Shown in pieces: positions 17,533 to 28,467 of a stretch of DNA of 64,000 nucleotides (position 1 is the first letter of the stretch; every line of letters starts with the position of its first letter). The translations under genes and the position numbers were made by a program. The stretch comes from Longimicrobiales bacterium (GTDB lineage: Bacteria; Gemmatimonadota; Gemmatimonadetes; Longimicrobiales; Gaopeijiaceae), in NCBI GenBank assembly GCA_958295645.1, contig OY282361.1, positions 516,927 to 580,926 on the forward strand. Direction: 5' to 3'. The notes beneath the pieces were generated by a model that did no database searches, was not told the origin of the DNA, and saw only the letters and a list, made by a program, of their open reading frames with translations.

Positions 17533-18786
17533 TCACGGCCCCATCGTTCCTATCGGGATCACGCCGACCCGTCCATTGGGAACCGCTCCGTATCCGCTGG
17601 GAACGATCACGGCCAAGGCGGCAGGCTCGCCATAGTTGCTGCTGGCCTTCATCCGCTTGGCGATCTTCGCAAGGTTGGCCATGCCTTCCGCGATCCGGCG
17701 CTCGCCCAGCTTGACCTCGAACGCCGCCCATCTGCCCTCGCCGTCTTCGACGATGGCGTCCACTTCCAGGCCGTCCTTTTCTCTGTAGTGGAACACATGG
17801 GCGTCGGCGGCTTGGGCGTAGACCCGAAGGTCCCGGATCACCATTGACTCGAAGAGGAGGCCGAGCGTCGCCAGGTCGCCTATCAGACGGGACGGGGTGG
17901 CACGCGACGCCGCAACCGCCAGCGACGGATCCGCAAAGTGCCTCACGGGCGTCTTGCGCAGGGTGGTTCGAGAACGCAAGTGCGGCGACCACGCGGGCTG
18001 GTCCTCGACGATCATGAGCCGCTCCAGAACCTCCAGGTATTCGGCGGCCGTGCTGTCCTTGAAGGCGGGTCCAGTGCCTCGAACGTCTCTGGCCAGCGTC
18101 GCGACGCTCGCCGGCGTGGCCACGTTGCGGGCCAGCGACTGCAACAGCCTTCCGACCTTGACGGGGTCGCGGCGCTTGTCTCCCGCCTGCTGAATGTCGG
18201 CGCGCTGGATCTCCGACAAGTAGTCCCGGTTGGCTCTCATGGCTTGCGCGAGGTTGCGGCCCAAGTTTCCGGGCCAGCCCCCGGCGCACACCAGCTCCGC
18301 GAGGCGCCGAATGGCGAGGATGGACCGAGCCGACCGCTGGGGTTCTCCCGCCAACAGGCCGGCCAACGATATCTCTCCCGTGGACTGTCCCGCCTCGAAG
18401 AGCGACATCGGACGCATCCGCAATCGAGTAAGGCGTCCCGCGCCGGTATGGCGGGTGATGTCGTCGGCGGGCACGGCCGAACCAGTGAGGACGAACTGGC
18501 CAGGGAGGCCCCGCCTGTCCACGGACTTGCGGATGTGGTTCCATATGGCCGGTTTCGTCTGCCATTCGTCGACGAGGCGGGGCGTGTCGCCTTCGAGGAC
18601 GGACGCCGGGTCGACATCGACCATCTCGCGGGCGGCGGCGTCCACGTCCAGGAACACCGCGCTGGCTGCTACCGTCTCGGCAGTCGCGGTCTTTCCGCAG
18701 GCCTTGGGGCCCTCGATGACGACCGCGCCAGTGGCCGACAGCCTTTCGGCCAGCTCCGCGTCGACGATCCGGGGAAGGTACTTCAT
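17533..18786 (-). CDS. AAA_14/DUF4143-family ATP-binding protein (second copy of this family in the window)
   Basis: Starts at MKYLPRIVDAELAERL...VIEGPKACGKTATA (Walker A). The 33 codons upstream in the listed ORF cross the repeat array and are not coding. Confidence 0.8.
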   Translation of the reverse strand: MKYLPRIVDAELAERLSATGAVVIEGPKACGKTATAETVAASAVFLDVDAAAREMVDVDPASVLEGDTPRLVDEWQTKPAIWNHIRKSVDRRGLPGQFVLTGSAVPADDITRHTGAGRLTRLRMRPMSLFEAGQSTGEISLAGLLAGEPQRSARSILAIRRLAELVCAGGWPGNLGRNLAQAMRANRDYLSEIQRADIQQAGDKRRDPVKVGRLLQSLARNVATPASVATLARDVRGTGPAFKDSTAAEYLEVLERLMIVEDQPAWSPHLRSRTTLRKTPVRHFADPSLAVAASRATPSRLIGDLATLGLLFESMVIRDLRVYAQAADAHVFHYREKDGLEVDAIVEDGEGRWAAFEVKLGERRIAEGMANLAKIAKRMKASSNYGEPAALAVIVPSGYGAVPNGRVGVIPIGTMGP

Positions 18787-18841
18787 GATTCTGAACGAAT
18801 AAGCTTCCGACGCGGCTCCGGCAAGACCGCCGCGAGCCGCC

Positions 18842-18905
18842 AGGGGAAGATTCGGCGAAGTTTTAGGGGAAGATTCGGCGAACAATCAGGGGAAGATTCG
18901 GCGAA
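18842..18905. repeat. Three direct copies of an 18-bp motif AGGGGAAGATTCGGCGAA at a 23-bp period (iteron-like array)
   Basis: Copies at 18842-18859, 18865-18882 and 18888-18905 with 5-nt spacers. The array lies 56 bp upstream of the minus-strand ATPase start and downstream of the unknown-function gene. Confidence 0.9.
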
Positions 18906-20251: not shown

Positions 20252-21094
20252 GAACCTATCTCAAAAACCGAGATGCTTGAAGAAGATGCAGATCGCCGAC
20301 AGCTGCACGAAGGCCAGAAAGTTCTCCGGATGATGCTCCCAGCGGATCAGAAGCCTGCGCTTCCACTGCATCCAGCCGAAGAACCGCTCCACGATCCACC
20401 GCCGCTTCGCCCGGCGCAGACGGCGACCGTCCTGCGTGCGCCGTCTCCGGTTGCGACGGTGCGGCGCGATCATCTCCACCCCCCGCTCCCGCAGTGCCGC
20501 GTCCAGAGCGTCGCTGTCGTACGCCTTGTCTCCGATCAGGTTCGCCGGCGCCTCCTGCGCGAAACGCCAAGTCCAACGACAACTGCACCAGCTTCGATTC
20601 GTGCGGGTTGGCCGGATGCGTGCTCAACGACAGCGGAAGCCCGCAACGGTCCACGATCGCCATGATCTTCACGCCCTTGCCCGCCTTCGCGACTCCCACG
20701 TCCGCACCCCCGCCCTTTGCCCGCGCGAACGACGCGTCCACGTACGCCTCCGTTCCGTCGAAGAGGCCCCGCTGCTTCGCTTCCCCCGCCAAGTCCTCCA
20801 GCACTCGCTCGAGCACACCCGCCCGGACCCACGCTTGAAACCGCCGGTGCACCGTCTTGTAGTTCGGGCAGCACTGCGGCAGAAACCGCCACTGCGCCCC
20901 CGTGTGCAGAATCCACAGCACCGCTTCCAGCACACGCCGAGTCGGCGCCGGCGGCCGTCCCCGCCTCCCCTTCGGCCTCGCCTCCTCGGGAAAGTGGCAA
21001 CGCACACGCTCCCACTGCCTGTCGCTCAAAAGCACTTCCTTCATGCTTGAACATACCCCATCTCGTCGACCCCCGCAACCTTCTCATGTTTTTG
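20252..21094. mobile_element. IS5-family insertion sequence (about 843 bp) with imperfect ~18-bp terminal inverted repeats
   Basis: IRL GAACCTATCTCAAAAAC (20252-20268). IRR GTTTTTGAGATAAGTTC (21078-21094), which is the reverse complement with one mismatch. Possible 2-bp target duplication TC. It encodes an IS5-type DDE transposase. Confidence 0.65.
20261..21044 (-). pseudogene. IS5-family DDE transposase, reading frame broken by a +1 shift
   Basis: N-terminal MKEVLLSDRQWERVRCHF...AIVDRCGLPLSLSTHPANPHESKLVQ in one frame. The continuation ...FAQEAPANLIGDKAYDSDALDAALRERGVEMIAPHRRNRRRR...IVERFFGWMQWKRRLLIRWEHHPENFLAFVQLSAICIFF is in the +1 frame. The frames switch near 20560-20585 with no slippery heptamer. 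Confidence 0.7.
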
Positions 21095-21301: not shown

Positions 21302-23323
21302 TCATTCCGTGCCTGGCGGGTCGTCGCCACGCCCAAGGAGCTTTCTAGTCGCCTGGCCTGGCGGGTCGTTGCCACGCCCAAGGAGCTTTCTAATCGCCGG
21401 CTTGGCCGACCGGATCAATCGCTTTCGTCCGGGGGGCCGGCCGATCTTCTTGAGGTGCTCTTCCGCTTCCTCGGCGGCCGCTGAAGTCAGCGTTGCTATG
21501 CGGGATGCAAGATCACTCAACACTCCCGTGTCGTCGGCCTTTTTCGCGAGCACGGTGACAGTTATCCCGGCGAGGATGCTCGCGGCCAGCGCGACCGATG
21601 CGGGGCCGCCCGCCGCCACGACCAGGGGCACCACGATCATCGGCACTGCGGTCCCCGCCGCGCCTTCTGCCAACTCCTTCACGCAACCCTCGTAGTCTCC
21701 GGTCTTGCGACCCTCCGTGAACGCCTTCGCCAAGGCGGTGAAGGCCACAACTCCAACGATTGGATTGCGCTTGAGGATCGCGACTAGCCCAGTGCTTGCG
21801 AAGATGCGCGCGAAGTGCCTGACTTCGCCGTCATTCCAGCGGAAGAGGAGTGCCGCGCTGCCAAGCAGTCCGGACACGATGTCGGCCGCGTCGTAGGTGA
21901 CCAGATCCTCGAACCACTTCTTGGGCATGCCGAACGTCGCCTTGAGCCAGTCGGCGATCTTGTGGTAGGCATCTTCGTTCCAGGTGAAGAAAGGCAGGCC
22001 GGCAGTGGTGGTGACGTCTCGGAAGAGCGAGAACGTTATTTCCTTGGCTCGAGTTATGATGCTGTCGTCGATGCCAGCGTTTCTTGCGGCTTTGAACGCG
22101 CCCCAGGGCGTATGACCTCCATCGAATACTCGGTGCAGGCGGCCGCCGATCCAGGTCCTCAGAAACTCGGCGTCCATCGCCTTGTCGTAGATCGTCGGGG
22201 CACCCTTGACCAACTGCGCCAGCATGTCGTTCAGGTTGGTCGCCAGCAGAGTGGTCAGGGCTCCTTGACCCATATCGTGGAGCCAGTTGACTGCCGTTGA
22301 CGCAGCTCGGGCCGTACGTCGGCGCAGAGGTGCTACCCACGCCAAGGCATCCTCCGCCGTGGGCGCAGCCATCGCCCGCTGACGCAGGAGCGCCAGCACC
22401 AAGTCGATCGTAGGCGTAGGCGTGCCCACCAGCCCCGCCATTTCTTGCACGGCGGCGCCCATGGCGTCGATCTCCAACGGACGCCCAGCCTGCAAGTCCT
22501 GCAGCATTGACGTTCGGTGTGCGCCGACCTTGCCGGTTCCGTCTATCCGCTTCTCCAGGCTGATGCGAAACCGGACGCCCAGGGCTTCGCCGACCTGTTG
22601 GGCCTCGGCCATCATCGACTTGGCCACGGTGCGTGTGCCGAGCTCGCTCGCAATCCGGTCCAGCGTGGCCAACGTCAGTGCGCTGATGGGGTTGAAGGCA
22701 ACATTGCCCCAGAGCTTGACCCAGATCTCGTCGCGAATCGGACGCACCCGGGCGCGGAAGCCGGCTTCGGCCAAGATGTGGCGAAGCGTCTCGACCCGTT
22801 TTGTGCTTTCGCCCGAGGGCTCGCCCAGCGTCAACCGGTCCTCGGACAGATGGCGGATCACGCCGGGCGCCACGATCTCCGTGGCCGGGTAGACGACGCA
22901 CCCGATGGCCCGCTCGGGGCCGATCCCGTCCCACTGCTTCCCGCCGGGATCGACGCTATCGAGGCGGTGGCCGTCGAAGTCGCCGCCCGAGCGGTAGAAG
23001 TACCACCAGGGCACGCCGTTTTGTGCAGTGACGACCGCTGTGTTCGGACCGAGCAGAGGCTGCATCGCGTCGACCGCGCCCGGGGTGGCGTGCGCCTTCA
23101 GCGTCACGATCACGTAGTCTTGGGGGCCGGCCTCCGCTGGATCGTCGGTGGAGAAGGGCCGCGCGTTCAGTTCTCCTTTGTCGGTGATCACCGTCACGCC
23201 GTCCTGCCGCATCGCCTCCAAGTGCGGCCCGCGGGCGATCAGCGTCGTTTCCACGCCGACTTGCGCCAACCGCAGGCCCAGGTACCCGCCCGTGGCGCCC
23301 GCGCCGAAGACCGCGACCTTCAC
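21302..23323 (-). CDS. panE: Fusion protein: N-terminal 2-dehydropantoate 2-reductase (PanE/ApbA) + C-terminal paralog copy 2 of the unknown-function protein
   Basis: N-terminus MKVAVFGAGATGGYLGLRLAQVG... is ketopantoate-reductase-like for about 320 aa. It continues in frame with no stop, through an internal Met (MAAPTAEDALAW...), into a ~330-aa region homologous to 19058..20206. GTG start overlaps the stop of the upstream acyl-CoA synthetase. Confidence 0.65.
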   Translation of the reverse strand: MKVAVFGAGATGGYLGLRLAQVGVETTLIARGPHLEAMRQDGVTVITDKGELNARPFSTDDPAEAGPQDYVIVTLKAHATPGAVDAMQPLLGPNTAVVTAQNGVPWWYFYRSGGDFDGHRLDSVDPGGKQWDGIGPERAIGCVVYPATEIVAPGVIRHLSEDRLTLGEPSGESTKRVETLRHILAEAGFRARVRPIRDEIWVKLWGNVAFNPISALTLATLDRIASELGTRTVAKSMMAEAQQVGEALGVRFRISLEKRIDGTGKVGAHRTSMLQDLQAGRPLEIDAMGAAVQEMAGLVGTPTPTIDLVLALLRQRAMAAPTAEDALAWVAPLRRRTARAASTAVNWLHDMGQGALTTLLATNLNDMLAQLVKGAPTIYDKAMDAEFLRTWIGGRLHRVFDGGHTPWGAFKAARNAGIDDSIITRAKEITFSLFRDVTTTAGLPFFTWNEDAYHKIADWLKATFGMPKKWFEDLVTYDAADIVSGLLGSAALLFRWNDGEVRHFARIFASTGLVAILKRNPIVGVVAFTALAKAFTEGRKTGDYEGCVKELAEGAAGTAVPMIVVPLVVAAGGPASVALAASILAGITVTVLAKKADDTGVLSDLASRIATLTSAAAEEAEEHLKKIGRPPGRKRLIRSAKPAIRKLLGRGNDPPGQATRKLLGRGDDPPGTE
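21312..21401 (-). repeat. 45-bp in-frame tandem duplication at the 3' end of paralog copy 2 (encodes the repeated RKLLGRGxDPPG)
   Basis: Units at 21312-21356 and 21357-21401 (cctggcgggtcgtcgccacgcccaaggagctttctagtcgcctgg / cctggcgggtcgttgccacgcccaaggagctttctaatcgccggc). Present once in copy 1 at about 19010-19055. Confidence 0.8.
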
Positions 23324-25007
23324 GTCGGCCTGGGACGGGCCGGGGACTCCGCTCGCGCCCCGGACTTTGCCCGGTGCTCACCATCCGCTGTTCCACTCGT
23401 GTCCTTCGTCGCGCCGAGTCCAAGCCGCTCGGCCAACCCGATCCGCTGCACTTTGCCCGTGGGCCCCGTGGGGATTGCGTCCATGATCACAATCTCGCGC
23501 GGCACCTTGAATGCGGCAAGGCGCTCGGACGCGAAAGCGCGGATGCCGTCCGGTGCGGCCGATTCGCGGTCCGCGTCGGTTTCCTCCTTCGGCGCACGTA
23601 AGGCCCCCTCCCGCAGCACCACTGCGGCCGCCACCTCCTCGCCCAGCTTCGGATGCGGGATGGCGAAGGTCACCGCCTGTCGCACGCCGGCATGTTGCAT
23701 GAGGACTTCGTCCACTTCGCGCGGCGACACTTTCTCGCCGCCCCGGTTGATGATCTCCTTCAAGCGCCCGGTGACGGCGAAGCAGCCGTCTTCGTCGCGA
23801 AAGCCTTGGTCGCCGGTGCGAAACCAGCCGTTGGTGAACGCGGCCTCGTTGGCGGCTGGGTTGTTCTCGTATCCAGGCGTCACGTTGGGGCCGCGAACGA
23901 CGATCTCGCCCGTCTCGCCGGGCGGCAGATGGACGCCGTCCTCGTCCATGACCGACATTTCGGGTCCCGCCGCCGGACCCACCGTGCCCAGCTTGCGACG
24001 CGCCGGGAGCAAGGGACTGCAAGTCATCTGATGGGCGGCCTCGGTCATGCCGTACGATTCCAGGACGGGTGCGCCGAAGGTCTCTTCCAGCTCGCGGGCA
24101 ACGCGAGTCGGCAGAGCCGCCGAAGAGGAGCGAACGAAGCGTAGCCGCGCACGCGCCACGGCCTCCGGGTTCCGCGCGGCGCGGGCCAAGACGGCTTGAT
24201 GCATGGCCGGGACGGCGGAATACCACGTTGGGACGCAGTCGTCCATCCAGCCGAAGAACTTGAGAGCGTCGAACCCCGGCGCGCAGTAGACGCAGGCCCC
24301 CGCCGCCAGCGACCCCAAGACGCAGGCCGCCAGCCCGTGGATGTGGAACAGCGGCATGACGTTCAGGCAACGGTCGCCGGGAACCAGCGACAACGCCTCC
24401 CGAATATGCAGCGCGGAGGCGCACAGGTTCCGGTGAAGCAGGGGAACGACCTTGGGGCGGGATGTGGTGCCCGACGTGTGGAGAACCAAGGCGGTGTCGT
24501 TGGGCCTGGCCGGGTCGCTGGGCCGGGCCATCCCGTCCGACCCGGCCTCGCCCGCCCGCTTGCCCCTGTCGCAACCCGCCGCCCCCACGATGCGAAACGT
24601 CCCGGTGGGATCGCCCTCCTGCACGCGGATCTCCAGCACGGCCACGTCCAGAGCGGCAGCCGCCGACCGTGCCCGGGAATCGCAGCCCTCCGTCAACATC
24701 AGCGCCTTGATCCCCAGGTCCGACAAGTAGAAGGCGAACTCGCGCTCCGTGTACGCGGGATTCAGCGGCGCCGCCACGGCCCCGGTAGCGACCGACACGA
24801 AAGCCGCCGCCGCCTCGGGTCCGCCGGGCAGGACGATGGCCACCCGGTCGCCTCGTCCCACGCCCCGGTCGCGCAACCCTCCGATCGTCCGCACCGCGTG
24901 CTTGCGCAGACAGTCGTAGGTCGCGCTGCGGCGTCCGGGGGCCGCAAGCGCAAAGTCGTTGGGCGCACCGGCCAGGAGCAGGTCGAAGACGGTGGAGGGG
25001 GCGGTCA
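23320..25007 (-). CDS. AMP-dependent synthetase/ligase (acyl-CoA synthetase family)
   Basis: AMP-binding motif LHTSGTTSRPKVV, followed by GYGMTE- and TGD-type motifs. The start was taken at MTAPSTVFDLL (ATG 25007); an upstream ATG at 25059 is an alternative. Confidence 0.8.
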
Positions 25008-25230
25008 TGCCGATGAGAATCGCATCACGACCGTCCTGCCCCAAGCCCGCCGCCGACATACGCCGTGCGCCGCAAGGGTCGCAAGAGACTGGAGCAGACT
25101 CACGTTCGACGGATGCCCGAGCGCCTGGGACGCCGGCGGGGAGACCGCCCGGTAGCGCGGGTTTGCGGCTTCTCGCCTTGCCAATCATCTTCGACACTGC
25201 AATGACGGCGGCCGCGCAAGAGATCGATTC

Positions 25231-26481
25231 ATGGGGAAAATCGAAGGAATCAGGGTCAAGAACTACCGAGTCCTCAAGAACGTCGTATTCGGCAAGTTGT
25301 GGAACACGCAGAAAGTCGCACCGCTGACTCCGCTGACCGCGGTCATTGGCAAGAACGGAGTCGGCAAGAGTTCTCTTTTCGACGCCTTTGGTTTCTTGGC
25401 CGACTGCCTGAAGTTGGGCGTCGAGGAGGCCTGCGACGCTCGTGGCCGTGGCGGCTTCCAGCGCATCCGGTCCCAAGGGAGTAAGGAGCCGATCGAATTC
25501 GAGATTTGTTATCGACAAGATTCGAGAACTCGGCCTATCACGTACGAACTCGCCATCGACAGCGACAACTCCCGTCGCCCCTATGTGTCAAGCGAGCGTC
25601 TCAGGCAACGGCGCAGGGGTCAGCGCTACGGTCGGCCCTTCTCGTTCTTGATCATGGAAGACGGGAAGGGCGTTGCCTGGAAGGGAGATGCCCACGCGCC
25701 GGTAGAAGCGTCCGGCTCCGAGTTGGACAAGTTGCGGGAGATTGGGTCAGAGGAGAGCGCGGACAGGGAAGAGGTAGAACTCGAAGACAAGCGCAGGTTG
25801 GGCATCGCGACGCTTGGCGCGCTGAAGCAGCATCCCCGCATGTCGTCGTTTCGCAATTTTGTGGAGGGTTGGTACCTGAGCTATTTTGCCCCGAACACTG
25901 CCCGTGGCTTGCCGTTGGCCGGGCCGCAAAGGCACTTGAGCGTCCATGGCGACAATCTAGGCAATGTAGTTCAGTTCATGGAACGCCGGCACCCGCGACG
26001 ATTCAAGGGCATCTTGCAACGGATTTCCGAGAGAGTACCCGGAATCCACAATATTGATACTGATCGAAGCCCTGATGGGCGACTGTTGCTCCGGTTTAAC
26101 GACAAGGGGTTCCAAGATCCGTTCTATGCACAGCAGGTGTCCGACGGCACGTTGAAGTTGTTTGCCTACTTGCTCTTGCTGGAAGACCCTTCGCCACCGC
26201 CGTTTATTTGCGTCGAAGAACCGGAAAACGGACTGTATCACAAGTTGCTGGAAACTCTTGCTCGCGAGATGCGCGATCATGCGCCGAAGACGCAAGTTCT
26301 TGTCACGACGCACCAGCCTTACTTTGTTGACGCGCTCAGCCCAAACGAGACGTGGATACTCGAGAAAGGAGCCGATGGGTTCGCCGCGATTCGGCGGGCG
26401 AGCGACGACCCCATAGTCGAATCGATGGTGAACGAGGGTCTGCCGCTCGGTAGCCTCTGGTACGGCGATTATCTGGATTGA
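25231..26481 (+). CDS. AAA_21/AAA_15-type (SMC/ABC-like) ATPase, orphan
   Basis: N-terminus IEGIRVKNYRVLKNV...LTAVIGKNGVGKSSLFDA (Walker A). Q-loop/signature-like QQVSDGTLKLFAYLLLL. Walker B FICVEEPENGLYH. TTHQPYFV near the C-terminus. The codon GC (~50-55%) is well below the flanking ~70%. Confidence 0.75.
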   Translation: MGKIEGIRVKNYRVLKNVVFGKLWNTQKVAPLTPLTAVIGKNGVGKSSLFDAFGFLADCLKLGVEEACDARGRGGFQRIRSQGSKEPIEFEICYRQDSRTRPITYELAIDSDNSRRPYVSSERLRQRRRGQRYGRPFSFLIMEDGKGVAWKGDAHAPVEASGSELDKLREIGSEESADREEVELEDKRRLGIATLGALKQHPRMSSFRNFVEGWYLSYFAPNTARGLPLAGPQRHLSVHGDNLGNVVQFMERRHPRRFKGILQRISERVPGIHNIDTDRSPDGRLLLRFNDKGFQDPFYAQQVSDGTLKLFAYLLLLEDPSPPPFICVEEPENGLYHKLLETLAREMRDHAPKTQVLVTTHQPYFVDALSPNETWILEKGADGFAAIRRASDDPIVESMVNEGLPLGSLWYGDYLD

Positions 26482-26543
26482 GATCGCGACGGCGTGCGAG
26501 ACTTGGCGAGAGGCTGACTTGGCCGGACAACGACTCGCCGCCG

Positions 26544-28270
26544 TCAACCCCCTCCCAAAGTCACCCTGCCCCCCACGTACACTCCACGGCCTGGAGCGGG
26601 GAACCCCCACACCTCTTCGTATCCGGCGCCTAGGAGGTTCTCCGCCCTCACGGTCAGGGCGACGCCCGCCCGCCGCCCCCGGCCCCCAGCCAGCCGCAGG
26701 TTGGCGCCCAAGTCCACGGTTGAATACGCCGGCATCACGACGGGCGCCGCCGACCAGACCGCGAAGTCGCGATCCTCGCGCGCGCCCACGTGGCGCAGGC
26801 CCAAGTCCAGCGTCAGCCGCTCCTGTGCCGACACGGAGGCGGTGGCCGTGAACGCATGTTCAGGGCGCCGAAGCAGTGGCTGTCCCTCCACGAAGGTTGC
26901 CCCGGGGCCCTCGTCGAAACCGCTGTCGTCCACTCGAGTTCGCAACCAAGTGTAGGAGCCGCCGAGTCGAAGCGGCCCGAAACCGGCCTCGGCCTCCGCC
27001 TCCAGGCCGCGGCTGCGCGCCCTCGCGACGTTGTGGAAGTTGGGGCCACCCGGCACGGGCGGAGAGAAGGTGTACTGGACGAGGTTGCGGAAGTTCTGCG
27101 AGAAGGCCGTCAGGGAAACGGAGGCGCCTGCGCCGATCTGCTGGTCCACGTCGGCTTCGAAGCCGGTCGAGCGCTCGGGAGCCAGATCGGGATTTCCAGA
27201 AGCGTAGGCCGATCCGAACGACTCGTCGAAGGTGGGCTCCTTGATTGCCGTCCCCGCCGAGGCGCGCAGCCGCGTGCCCGCCGGAGAGAGCCGCCATACG
27301 ACTCCGGCGCGCCATGTCGCGGCCGTCCGTCGGCGAGACCTTCCGAACCGAAGAACCCAAGCGTGTCCGCCGGGCCGTCCGGGGCGTCGTCGTTGCCAGA
27401 GTCCCACTCGTGCAAGGCCAGCGCCAGGCGCGTCTCGAAGGCGTCCGTCCACCTGCGGCCTGCATCCACGGTTGCGACCAGGGCGTCGCCGAACGTGTAG
27501 GCGTTGCGATCCACGACCGCTCCCGACCCGTCGGTGGGGAAGTGGAAACGCTGCTTCTCATGGCGGACGGAGAGCGTCACGTCGGTCTGCGCGTTCGGCC
27601 TCGCCTGCACGCGCCCCGTCGCCGTCGTCGCGCGGTGGCCGTTGTTGAAGTCGAGGATGCCGTCCGTGTCGTTTCGGCCCAAGGAGAAGGCGTAGGACAG
27701 CGCCCCGGTACCGCCGGAGGCCCCGCCGCGCCATTGCCGCGTCCCGAAGCTCCCAGCGCGAAACGACAGGTCGGCGGACGGCGCCCCGCGCCCCTGCCGC
27801 GTAAACACGTGGATCACGCCGCTCACCGCGTCCGAGCCGTACAGCGCCGAGGCCGGCCCGCGCAAGATCTCGATTCGCTCGACGCCGTCCACCGTCATCG
27901 AACCGAAGTCGAAGCGTCCGCCCGGCTCGTTCACGCTGACCCCGTCCACCAGCACCTGCACATGGTCGGACTCGCCTCCCCGGAGGAATGCCGAGGTCGT
28001 GGCGCCGAAGGAGCCGCCCCGGACGACGGCGAGCGAGGCGACTTGCCGCAAGGCGTCGGCCACGTACTTGATCCCGGCCCGCTGCAACGCCTCGCCTTCG
28101 ATGACGGTGATGCGGGCGGCGACGGTCCAGGCGGGTGCGGGCCGCCGGTTGGCGGTGACGACGAGACCCTCGAGGGGAATGGGTTCTTGCGCTTGAACGG
28201 GAGCGTCGGCGGCGCCCAGAAGTGTTGCCAGGAAGACGGCGGTGCAGGTGGCGCGTCGCGAAACTCGATG
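26544..28270 (-). pseudogene. TonB-dependent outer-membrane receptor (BtuB/CirA-like size, ~600 aa) interrupted by a frameshift
   Basis: The N-terminal plug and start of the barrel (ORF 27110..28357: signal peptide, TonB-box-like LVVTANR, plug motifs) and the C-terminal barrel (ORF 26544..27452) are in different frames. The frames switch around 27300-27400. The start is probably GTG near 28270, before the signal peptide VSRRATCTAVFLATLLGAADAPVQA. Confidence 0.65.
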
Positions 28271-28467
28271 TCCGCGAGGCTCCGCCCGGAAAGCGGAAGG
28301 CCAGCGGCGGCGAAAGTGCGAAGACGCCGGGAAAGGGGGATGCGCGGCGTGTCTCATGTCGGCTCTCCTTCCCCGCGCGGAAGAAGAGGGAGAGGCCGGG
28401 CGAACGCGCCGGCTCGGACACCCTCACCTCCCCGCGGAGGTGTTGAAATGGGCGCCGAAGGAGATCG

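What the first reader, a model, noticed from the sequence alone, without database searches (positions are those of the whole stretch)
25231..26481. Low-GC orphan AAA_21/SMC-like ATPase: a horizontally acquired single-gene candidate defence or abortive-infection factor
A complete ABC/SMC-fold ATPase (Walker A, Q-loop/signature-like, Walker B, H-loop-like) of 416 aa with no partner gene. Its codon GC is around 50-55% in a ~70% GC genome. It is transcribed divergently from the neighbouring operon. AAA_15/AAA_21 ATPases of this size are core components of several phage-defence systems (Septu PtuA, PARIS AriA, AbiL, Gabija-like). Here there is no nuclease partner in cis. Either the effector lies elsewhere, or this is an uncharacterised stand-alone variant.
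Basis: partly seen in the sequence, partly recalled or inferred. Interest (0 to 1): 0.5.

Follow-up and report, generated by a model that had tools for sequence, protein, structure and literature searches.

The report
Defence-type ATPase that lost its nuclease partner
This gene is the intact ATPase half of a known two-gene candidate anti-phage cassette (HEC-01) whose nuclease half was removed by a roughly 630-bp deletion, so it is a decayed copy of a catalogued system and not a new stand-alone one.

Summary
The ORF at 25231-26481 (+) is real. It encodes a 416-aa ABC-type ATPase with all catalytic motifs intact. Its GC is 57.4% in a 68.4% GC window, and it is transcribed divergently from an acyl-CoA ligase gene.

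It is not an uncharacterised orphan. It matches the PADLOC HEC-01A model end to end (E 8.7e-189). In relatives this ATPase is almost always followed, about 14 nt downstream, by a DUF4276 (TOPRIM-type, HEC-01B) gene: 83 of 84 ATPase-anchored genome loci, and 61 of 61 DUF4276-anchored metagenome loci.

Two related Gemmatimonadota genomes show the same gene order as the window (ApbA, acyl-CoA ligase, ATPase, DUF4276, TonB receptor) with DUF4276 intact. In the window about 630 bp are missing immediately after the ATPase stop codon. Only the last 11 DUF4276 codons remain (DRDGVRDLARG*, 26482-26517).

So the cassette is ancestral at this locus, not a recent single-gene acquisition. Its below-host GC is a family-wide trait. 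The ATPase shows no detectable decay (dN/dS about 0.1). The adjacent TonB receptor is also broken by a roughly 240-bp deletion. HEC-01 itself gave no phage protection when tested (Payne et al. 2024 preprint).

Verdict: an ordinary degraded instance of a known candidate system. Low interest.

The parts
25231..26481 (+). Intact HEC-01A-type ABC ATPase gene (416 aa), with Walker A, signature-like motif, Walker B and H-loop all conserved.
   Evidence: ORF. Pfam AAA_21 E 3.2e-42. PADLOC HEC-01A model PDLC04182 E 8.7e-189, residues 1-416 against profile positions 1-401 of 406. 84% identity to P0002. Motifs match the consensus of 82 family members. dN/dS 0.09-0.12.
26482..26517 (+). Remnant of the deleted partner gene (DUF4276 / HEC-01B, TOPRIM-type). 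It holds the last 11 codons plus the stop, reading DRDGVRDLARG*. The deletion junction lies at 26482-26487, directly after the ATPase stop codon.
   Evidence: tblastn gives an 8/8 residue match to the C-terminus of the L001 DUF4276 protein at 26485-26508. DNA matches to L001 7894-7918 and L003 7872-7900. The family C-terminal consensus is FRDxxRxLA-GI*, and L009 ends FRDGVRDLAGI*. Collinear blastn shows window 25222-26482 aligned to L089 11928-13220, then window 26488-27330 aligned to L089 13853-14693, so 632 bp of L089 (631 bp of L087) have no counterpart in the window.
25060..25230 (.). Divergent intergenic region between the acyl-CoA ligase gene (minus strand) and the ATPase gene. It presumably holds both promoters.
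   Evidence: The source-annotated ligase product P0121 is 579 aa, which places its start near 25059. The consensus scan found no sigma-70-like promoter here, which is uninformative for this phylum. The equivalent divergent spacer is 249 bp in L089.
23320..25059 (-). Flanking host gene: AMP-binding acyl-CoA ligase. It serves as a synteny anchor.
   Evidence: Pfam AMP-binding E 5.2e-74. Orthologs P0122 and P0133 lie beside complete ATPase + DUF4276 cassettes in L087 and L089.
26544..28357 (-). Flanking TonB-dependent receptor, a pseudogene here. About 80 codons are missing internally and the frame shifts at about 27323-27335. It serves as a synteny anchor. In relatives its 3' end overlaps the 3' tail of DUF4276.
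   Evidence: The Plug domain and the beta-barrel lie in two different frames. Ortholog residues 1-280 align in frame -1 and residues 362-616 in frame -3. About 240 bp present in both L089 and L087 are absent from the window.

Best explanation
The gene is the surviving ATPase half of a decayed HEC-01 cassette. HEC-01 is a two-gene module made of an ABC ATPase (HEC-01A) and a small TOPRIM-superfamily DUF4276 protein (HEC-01B).

Shown:
- The cassette was already at this chromosomal position (between an acyl-CoA ligase gene and a TonB-dependent receptor gene) in the common ancestor of this genome and at least two other Gemmatimonadota (Longimicrobiales-like) genomes.
- In this lineage a deletion of about 630 bp removed the spacer and about the first 205 codons of DUF4276. 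That stretch includes the conserved N-terminal acidic residues (E4, E8, D9) and the D85/D87 motif, which the literature equates with the TOPRIM catalytic Glu and DxD.
- The ATPase ORF and its upstream region are untouched.

Inferred, by analogy with other split ABC-ATPase/TOPRIM systems (PARIS AriA/AriB, OLD-family nucleases):
- The ATPase is the sensor or scaffold that controls the nuclease, and the DUF4276 protein is the effector.
- Without the effector, the ATPase can still bind and hydrolyse ATP but cannot produce the system's output.
- The locus is therefore most likely a non-functional remnant. The ATPase ORF is still intact either because the loss was recent relative to the divergence sampled or because the ATPase alone is harmless.
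For: - Family: full-length match to PADLOC HEC-01A (E 8.7e-189). Partners in relatives match HEC-01B (E 4e-85 and 1.3e-91).
- Obligate pairing: DUF4276 follows the ATPase in 83 of 84 genome loci with enough downstream sequence, usually 12-18 nt after it. A full-length ATPase precedes DUF4276 in 61 of 61 DUF4276-anchored metagenome loci.
- Deletion: collinear alignments to L089 and L087 skip 632 and 631 bp exactly between the ATPase stop codon and about codon 207 of DUF4276. The retained 11 codons match the family's C-terminal motif.
- Ancestry at the locus: L087 and L089 share the order ApbA, AMP-binding, ATPase, DUF4276, TonB receptor (L089 also has the PQQ dehydrogenase) with the window.
- No other DUF4276 in the 64 kb.
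- Effector role of DUF4276: it is described as a TOPRIM-superfamily member with a conserved Glu and DxD (PMC12065111), and HEC-01B shares the OLD-type metal-binding site (10.1101/2024.01.29.577857). E4, E8, D9, D85 and D87 are invariant in alignment A2.
- Partner loss recurs: L055 has no DUF4276, and L058 and L007 carry internal DUF4276 deletions beside intact ATPases.
Against: - The ATPase shows no sign of decay. All motifs are intact. dN/dS is 0.09-0.12, the same as pairs with intact partners. The relative-rate excess is small and not significant (chi-square below 1). Deviations at conserved columns equal those of clade-mates that keep the partner. This fits a recent deletion equally well as continued selection for a partner-independent or trans-partnered role.
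- Only 64 kb of a contig of about 2.9 Mb was visible, so a second DUF4276 or other effector elsewhere cannot be excluded.
- The source is apparently a metagenome-assembled genome (the record itself was not identified), so the deletion was not verified against reads.
- The defence function of HEC-01 is itself unproven: no protection was seen in the one published test.
Confidence: 0.85

Rival explanations
1. The ATPase still works after losing its cis partner, either alone (for example as a sensor, decoy or regulator) or with a nuclease encoded elsewhere in the genome.
For: The ORF and all catalytic motifs are intact. dN/dS is about 0.1 with no significant rate acceleration. Three other loci also keep an intact ATPase after DUF4276 loss or damage.
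Against: Pairing is near-obligate in both directions (83/84, 61/61), which argues that the two proteins function only together. No orphan clade was seen: each orphan's nearest relative keeps the partner. L055 and L058 show more changes at conserved columns than their nearest intact relatives. No candidate effector lies in the 64 kb. Pairwise dN/dS averages over a long shared history and cannot detect recent relaxation.
Confidence: 0.1
2. The missing partner is an assembly or consensus artefact. The organism actually carries an intact two-gene HEC-01 cassette, and the 630-bp gap (and the 240-bp gap in the receptor) comes from mis-assembly or from a minority deletion variant being taken as the consensus.
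For: The sequence probably comes from a metagenome-assembled genome: the exact protein is recorded once, on a single 2.89-Mb contig. Two deletions fall within 1 kb. Several related long-read MAGs show frameshifts in DUF4276 that may be sequencing errors.
Against: Sequencing errors produce 1-2 nt indels, not clean losses of 630 and 240 bp with collinear flanks. Similar internal DUF4276 deletions occur independently in L058 and L007, so such events do happen in this family.
Confidence: 0.05
3. It is an ordinary ABC-transporter ATP-binding subunit remnant or a housekeeping SMC/RecF/RecN-type protein.
For: It shares P-loop and Walker B similarity with ABC_tran, SMC_N, RecF and SbcC models.
Against: Those matches all fall below their cut-offs and cover only the P-loop (ABC_tran 13.5 against 25 bits; RecF 13.8 against 172 bits). 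By contrast the HEC-01A match is 625.6 bits over the full length. No permease or substrate-binding genes are adjacent.
Confidence: 0.01

Closest known systems
HEC-01 (Hma-embedded candidate 1; PADLOC-DB; Payne et al. 2024 preprint 10.1101/2024.01.29.577857)
   Same: The ATPase matches the HEC-01A model over its full length (625.6 bits). Syntenic relatives carry the complete A+B pair, and their B proteins match HEC-01B. It has the same ABC ATPase architecture with inserts.
   Different: The B subunit (TOPRIM/DUF4276) is deleted here, so PADLOC's two-gene definition is not met. The locus is not embedded in an Hma system or a defence island; it sits among metabolic and transport genes. HEC-01 gave no protection in the published assays.
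PARIS (AriA ABC ATPase + AriB DUF4435 TOPRIM nuclease; PMC11464382)
   Same: It has the same logic of a separate AAA_15/21 ABC ATPase and a small TOPRIM-type effector. [quoted passage not shown] This is the best mechanistic analogy: the ATPase scaffold holds the nuclease until a trigger arrives.
   Different: The only AriA-labelled hits are the generic AAA_21 and AAA_15 profiles, and they score far lower (130 and 58 bits). The family's partner is DUF4276, not DUF4435. Foldseek places AriA only at rank 49 with TM about 0.2, on a poor model.
MADS MAD3/MAD4 (methylation-associated defence system; 10.1101/2023.03.30.534895)
   Same: MAD3 is an AAA ATPase, and MAD4 is a DUF4276 homolog (PMC12065111). 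So the same ATPase + DUF4276 pairing exists as an accessory module of MADS. Deleting mad3 or mad4 reduced bacterial growth under phage infection.
   Different: The NCBIfam MAD3 model scores 93.9 bits against a cut-off of 420. None of the neighbours scanned with Pfam is a methyltransferase or restriction-type gene. The MAD6-8 core genes were not searched for specifically.
Septu PtuA / retron-associated PtuAB, and OLD-family nucleases
   Same: ABC ATPase of the same broad clade. PtuA, Rad50 and RecN are the top Foldseek matches, and the OLD ATPase P-loop matches in the PDB profile search.
   Different: PtuA models score 41.5 bits or less and only partially. The partner in this family is TOPRIM/DUF4276, not the HNH protein PtuB. 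In class 1 OLD proteins the TOPRIM domain is fused to the ATPase, whereas here it is, or was, a separate gene.

Membership tests
HEC-01 (PADLOC candidate system) | ABC ATPase matching an HEC-01A profile over its full length | tested here: met
   PDLC04182 E 8.7e-189, 625.6 bits, residues 1-416 against profile positions 1-401 of 406.
HEC-01 (PADLOC candidate system) | Adjacent HEC-01B gene (TOPRIM-type, DUF4276) | tested here: not met
   No DUF4276 in the window. Only an 11-codon remnant remains at 26482-26517, and 631-632 bp are missing relative to L087 and L089. Relatives have the gene (83/84; HEC-01B E 4e-85).
HEC-01 (PADLOC candidate system) | Embedded in or beside an Hma or other defence system | tested here: not met
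   The neighbours are ApbA, acyl-CoA ligase, TonB receptor, PQQ dehydrogenase and a phosphate-binding-type transporter. The same non-defence synteny is seen in L087 and L089.
HEC-01 (PADLOC candidate system) | Demonstrated anti-phage activity | not testable with these tools
   The published test of one HEC-01 representative in E. coli found no protection against any phage tried (10.1101/2024.01.29.577857).
PARIS (AriA/AriB) | AriA-type ATPase with an adjacent or fused DUF4435 TOPRIM protein (AriB) | tested here: not met
   The AriA-labelled hits are the generic AAA_21 (304 positions) and AAA_15 (373 positions) profiles, at 129.8 and 58 bits. No partner gene is present, and the family's partner is DUF4276.
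MADS MAD3 | Score above the NCBIfam NF047739 cut-off, in the context of the MAD6-8 core genes | tested here: not met
   93.9 bits against a cut-off of 420. The neighbours scanned with Pfam are metabolic or transport genes. No specific search for MAD6-8 was run.
Septu PtuA | PtuA profile match plus an adjacent HNH protein (PtuB) | tested here: not met
   PtuA1 model 41.5 bits, partial. NCBIfam PtuA 18.8 bits against a cut-off of 500. No HNH gene is adjacent.
ABC transporter nucleotide-binding subunit | Pfam ABC_tran above its gathering score, with adjacent permease genes | tested here: not met
   ABC_tran 13.5 bits against a cut-off of 25, P-loop only. No permease is adjacent.
ABC-ATPase superfamily (SMC/Rad50/OLD-like clade) | Walker A, signature-like motif, Walker B and H-loop in ABC order; N-terminal beta-hairpin; ABC fold | tested here: met
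   The motifs are present and conserved. AAA_21, AAA_15 and SMC_N match. Foldseek hits are exclusively ABC/SMC-type ATPases, but on a low-confidence model (pLDDT 55.6, TM about 0.2), so the fold evidence is weak and rests mainly on sequence.

The most novel reading that the evidence does not exclude
The orphaned HEC-01A ATPase is maintained by selection after effector loss, either as a stand-alone factor or with a trans-encoded nuclease. More broadly, this unusually conserved ATPase + DUF4276 subfamily may not be a classical phage-defence system at all. The points behind that are:
- At least 68% amino-acid identity across many bacterial phyla and one archaeal MAG.
- A stable, syntenic, non-island position in Gemmatimonadota.
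- No defence activity when HEC-01 was tested.
It could instead be a conserved module acting on some other target, for example plasmids or a host nucleic-acid process.
Probability: 0.1. Interest if true: 0.45.

Novelty: new member of a known kind. Interest (0 to 1): 0.15.

Why it matters
It matters little beyond correct annotation. The gene should be labelled as an HEC-01A-type ABC ATPase in an incomplete cassette (the TOPRIM/DUF4276 partner is deleted), not as a new single-gene defence factor or a fresh horizontal acquisition.

Two minor points may interest people who work on defence systems:

1. Loss of the nuclease with retention of the ATPase occurred independently at least four times among about 85 loci. 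That pattern fits the effector being the costly or toxic part. The reciprocal search found no ATPase-less DUF4276 in 61 loci, but the two samples are not strictly comparable, so the asymmetry is suggestive and not demonstrated.

2. This HEC-01 subfamily is remarkably conserved and widely transferred, including on a conjugative plasmid, yet its function is still unverified. Intact relatives such as the L089 cassette would be reasonable candidates for further testing.

Tried and rejected
- Cryptic C-terminal nuclease domain: rejected. AAA_21 covers residues 35-367, leaving only 49 residues, and Foldseek returned no nuclease fold. The AlphaFold model was poor (pLDDT 55.6, pTM 0.45) because the 25-sequence alignment is shallow (73-84% identity). 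The fold search therefore only weakly supports the ABC assignment.
- PDB sequence searches, with both the single sequence and the profile, found no close solved relative. The hits are P-loop-only matches to SMC and OLD proteins.
- Decay of the ATPase after partner loss: orphans as a group deviate more at conserved columns (Mann-Whitney p about 0.002). For the window and L007 this is a clade effect, because clade-mates that keep the partner score the same. I rejected it as evidence for this locus. Tajima-type relative-rate tests and pairwise dN/dS were also negative.
- Low GC as proof of recent transfer: rejected by the regression over 83 loci and by the synteny.
The Gemmatimonadota/Longimicrobiales affiliation is inferred from neighbours and nearest relatives.
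- The promoter and terminator consensus scan found nothing useful. The window has no tRNA genes.
- Asymmetry of loss (effector lost, ATPase kept): the reciprocal DUF4276-anchored search found 0 of 61 without an ATPase, against 3 deletions plus 5 frameshifts among 84 loci. The two samples come from different collections, and each is biased towards an intact query gene, so I do not claim significance.
- The profile search for the remnant did not score the 11-residue fragment. The remnant rests on tblastn, blastn and collinearity instead.
Full report
**1. The observation**

An ATG-to-TGA ORF of 416 codons lies at exactly 25231-26481 on the + strand. Pfam assigns AAA_21 over residues 35-367 (E 3.2e-42), with AAA_15 and SMC_N at the N-terminus.

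- Walker A: GKNGVGKS, residues 40-47.
- Signature-like: SDGT, residues 304-307.
- Walker B: FICVEEPE, residues 325-332.
- H-loop: TTHQ, residues 359-362.

The gene's GC is 57.4% (GC3 0.70). The window is 68.4% overall, and neighbouring genes have GC3 of 0.78-0.90. This is the only 1-kb stretch of the window below 62% GC.

Upstream lies an AMP-binding acyl-CoA ligase gene on the minus strand, so the two are divergent. Downstream lies a TonB-dependent receptor, also on the minus strand, so those two are convergent.

**2. What the protein is**

Against PADLOC-DB the protein matches the HEC-01A model PDLC04182 end to end (E 8.7e-189, 625.6 bits). That is far above the generic AriA-labelled AAA_21 profile (129.8 bits), mad3 (81.9 bits), AbiLi and PtuA. 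NCBIfam has no model above its cut-off: MAD3 scores 93.9 bits against 420, and all transporter, RecF and SbcC hits cover only the P-loop. ABC_tran is below its threshold.

HEC-01 is defined in Payne et al. (bioRxiv 10.1101/2024.01.29.577857) as an ABC ATPase plus a TOPRIM-domain protein found embedded in Hma systems. The tested representative protected against none of the phages tried.

**3. The partner**

The family is very large: more than 8000 database hits, with the best 120 all at least 71% identical. The two closest homologs (84% and 81% identity) are each followed, after a 13-nt spacer, by a 216-227-aa DUF4276 gene.

Pairing counts in both directions:

| Sample | Loci with enough flanking sequence | Partner present |
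|---|---|---|
| ATPase-anchored loci from species-representative genomes | 84 | 83 have DUF4276 downstream, typically 12-18 nt after the ATPase |
| DUF4276-anchored metagenome loci | 61 | 61 have a full-length ATPase upstream |

The partners in relatives match HEC-01B (E 4e-85 and 1.3e-91). DUF4276 is described as a TOPRIM-superfamily member with a conserved Glu and DxD, homologous to Mad4 of MADS (PMC12065111). E4, E8, D9, D85 and D87 are invariant in my alignment of 21 partners. The normal state of this family is therefore an obligate two-gene module.

**4. What happened here**

No DUF4276 gene exists anywhere in the 64 kb (tblastn; profile search). The three codons after the ATPase stop begin the string DRDGVRDLARG* (26482-26517). 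Eight of these residues are identical to the C-terminus of the L001 partner (RDGVRDLA). The string fits the family-wide C-terminal motif: L009 ends FRDGVRDLAGI*. The DNA matches the 3' ends of the partner genes in L001 and L003.

Searching with the neighbouring acyl-CoA ligase found two related genomes with the same gene order as the window and an intact DUF4276. These are L087, a metagenome scaffold, and L089, from OZ241892.1, a Longimicrobiales MAG. The shared order is ApbA, AMP-binding, ATPase, DUF4276, TonB receptor, and L089 also carries the PQQ dehydrogenase.

Collinear blastn maps the deletion:
- Window 25222-26482 aligns to L089 11928-13220, and window 26488-27330 aligns to L089 13853-14693.
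- Window 25204-26482 aligns to L087 14332-15646, and window 26484-27330 aligns to L087 16278-17119.
- So 632 bp of L089 and 631 bp of L087 are absent from the window. The missing stretch is the spacer plus about the first 620 nt of DUF4276.

The cassette is therefore ancestral at this site, and the partner was deleted in this lineage. Nucleotide identity of the ATPase to L087 and L089 (75.7% and 77.3%) is in the range of the flanking genes (69-84%). That is consistent with co-inheritance and not with recent import.

**5. Low GC and horizontal transfer**

Across 83 loci the ATPase gene's GC correlates with flank GC (r = 0.88, slope 0.67). It lies below the flank GC in most of the sampled high-GC hosts. 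A host at 0.70 predicts 0.588, and the observed value is 0.574. The GC deficit is a family trait, partly forced by a highly conserved protein with GC2 of 0.42, and does not date the acquisition.

On deep timescales the family is clearly mobile:
- Identities of 68% or more span Acidobacteriota, Cyanobacteriota, Desulfobacterota, Pseudomonadota, Chloroflexota, Verrucomicrobiota and even a Promethearchaeota MAG.
- 68%-identical copies sit on a Rahnella megaplasmid and on the conjugative Pseudomonas plasmid pGLE121P3, between the T4SS genes and the MobF relaxase.
- It is rare in phages.

**6. Is the orphan ATPase decaying?**

Nothing detectable:
- Pairwise dN/dS to its four nearest relatives is 0.09-0.12. 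Pairs that keep the partner give 0.05-0.13.
- Relative-rate counts are slightly higher on the window branch in all four comparisons (for example 17.6 against 14.9), but far from significant.
- A grouped test suggested that orphans deviate more at conserved columns (p about 0.002). Clade-mates that keep the partner score the same as the window, so that signal is phylogenetic for this locus. Only L055 and L058 exceed their nearest intact relatives.

So either the deletion is recent relative to the sampled divergence (dS of 0.7 or more), or the ATPase remains under selection. These data cannot separate the two.

**7. Recurrence**

Beside intact ATPases, L055 has no DUF4276 at all. L058 lacks residues of about 50-163 and L007 lacks residues of about 82-157; both deletions remove the D85/D87 motif. 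Five further loci are frameshifted, which could be sequencing error in long-read MAGs. Together with the window, that makes four independent effector losses. The reciprocal search found none for the ATPase, but sampling biases prevent a firm claim of asymmetry.

**8. Mechanism**

Shown: the anatomy, the pairing, the deletion and the synteny.

Inferred from established knowledge of ABC-ATPase/TOPRIM systems (OLD-family nucleases; PARIS, PMC11464382; HEC-01B's OLD-like metal site): the ATPase acts as the sensor or scaffold, and DUF4276 is the nuclease effector. With the effector gone, the locus most likely has no output. If the free effector is toxic, losing it first is the tolerated route of decay.

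I put 0.85 on 'degraded HEC-01 cassette, not a functional stand-alone system'. The structural part of that claim (partner deleted from an ancestral two-gene cassette) is close to certain, unless the assembly is wrong.

**9. Structure**

AlphaFold2 on a shallow alignment gave a poor model (pLDDT 55.6). Its Foldseek hits are all ABC/SMC-type ATPases (PtuA, Rad50, RecN, cohesin heads, AriA) at TM of about 0.2. This is compatible with the sequence-based assignment and gives no hint of a nuclease domain, but it carries little weight.

**10. Surroundings**

The neighbourhood is ordinary chromosome, not a defence island. It contains:
- a BNR/Sortilin protein;
- an AAA_14/DUF4143 ATPase;
- an IS4/5-type transposase ORF (20256-21044);
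- ApbA and the acyl-CoA ligase;
- the TonB receptor and the PQQ dehydrogenase;
- phosphate-type ABC transporter components.

The TonB receptor next to the cassette is itself a pseudogene. About 80 codons are missing, and the frame shifts at about 27323-27335 relative to both orthologs.

**11. Verdict**

The family-level guess (a defence-type AAA_21 ATPase) is right. The key interpretations are not supported: it is not a single-gene system, not a recent horizontal acquisition, and not an uncharacterised stand-alone variant. It is a new, degraded instance of a catalogued but functionally unvalidated candidate system. Interest is low.

Noticed in passing
window 26544-28357 (-), junction about 27323-27335: The TonB-dependent receptor next to the cassette is a pseudogene. 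Compared with the orthologs in L089 and L087, about 80 codons (about 240 bp) are missing and the reading frame shifts. So two deletions (630 bp and 240 bp) lie within 1 kb.
   Followed up: yes
window 20256-21044 (-): An ORF with a DUF4096 domain (putative IS4/5-family transposase, E 3.9e-24) lies about 4 kb upstream of the ATPase. Its completeness, terminal repeats and any link to the nearby deletions were not examined.
   Followed up: no
window 17533-18885 (-): An AAA_14 + DUF4143 ATPase gene. DUF4143-containing genes also lie within about 4 kb of the cassette in L087 and L089, where L089 additionally has a PIN-domain gene. Function and any relation to the cassette are unknown.
   Followed up: no
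loci L007-L086 (family-wide): This HEC-01A subfamily is unusually conserved for a defence-type gene: 68-84% amino-acid identity across more than ten phyla and one Promethearchaeota MAG. Its DUF4276 partner is only 46-75% identical. The gene's GC lies below host GC in most sampled high-GC hosts (slope 0.67).
   Followed up: partly
L055; L058 6302-6585; L007 6297-6745: These are independent cases of effector loss beside an intact ATPase. L055 has no DUF4276. L058 and L007 have internal deletions that remove the D85/D87 (DxD) region. L024, L028, L080, L019 and L076 have frameshifted DUF4276 genes.
   Followed up: partly
L170 (NC_021212.1, plasmid pGLE121P3) 3501-5460: A 68%-identical copy of the ATPase, followed by a 220-aa 'hypothetical protein', sits between the T4SS genes and the MobF relaxase of a conjugative Pseudomonas plasmid from Antarctic glacier ice. 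That is a plausible vehicle for the family's spread.
   Followed up: partly
PADLOC models PDLC04143 and PDLC04144: The model labelled HEC-01B (PDLC04144) matches the ATPase (E 2.2e-99), and the model labelled HEC-01A (PDLC04143) matches DUF4276 proteins (E about 1e-15). The A and B labels appear to be swapped for this model pair, perhaps for a subtype with reversed gene order.
   Followed up: no
L003-L006 4737-6008: In the 81%-identical relatives, a SLFN_AlbA_2 + HATPase_c_4 gene overlaps the start of the ATPase gene by 8 nt. That suggests a three-gene arrangement in some lineages.
   Followed up: no
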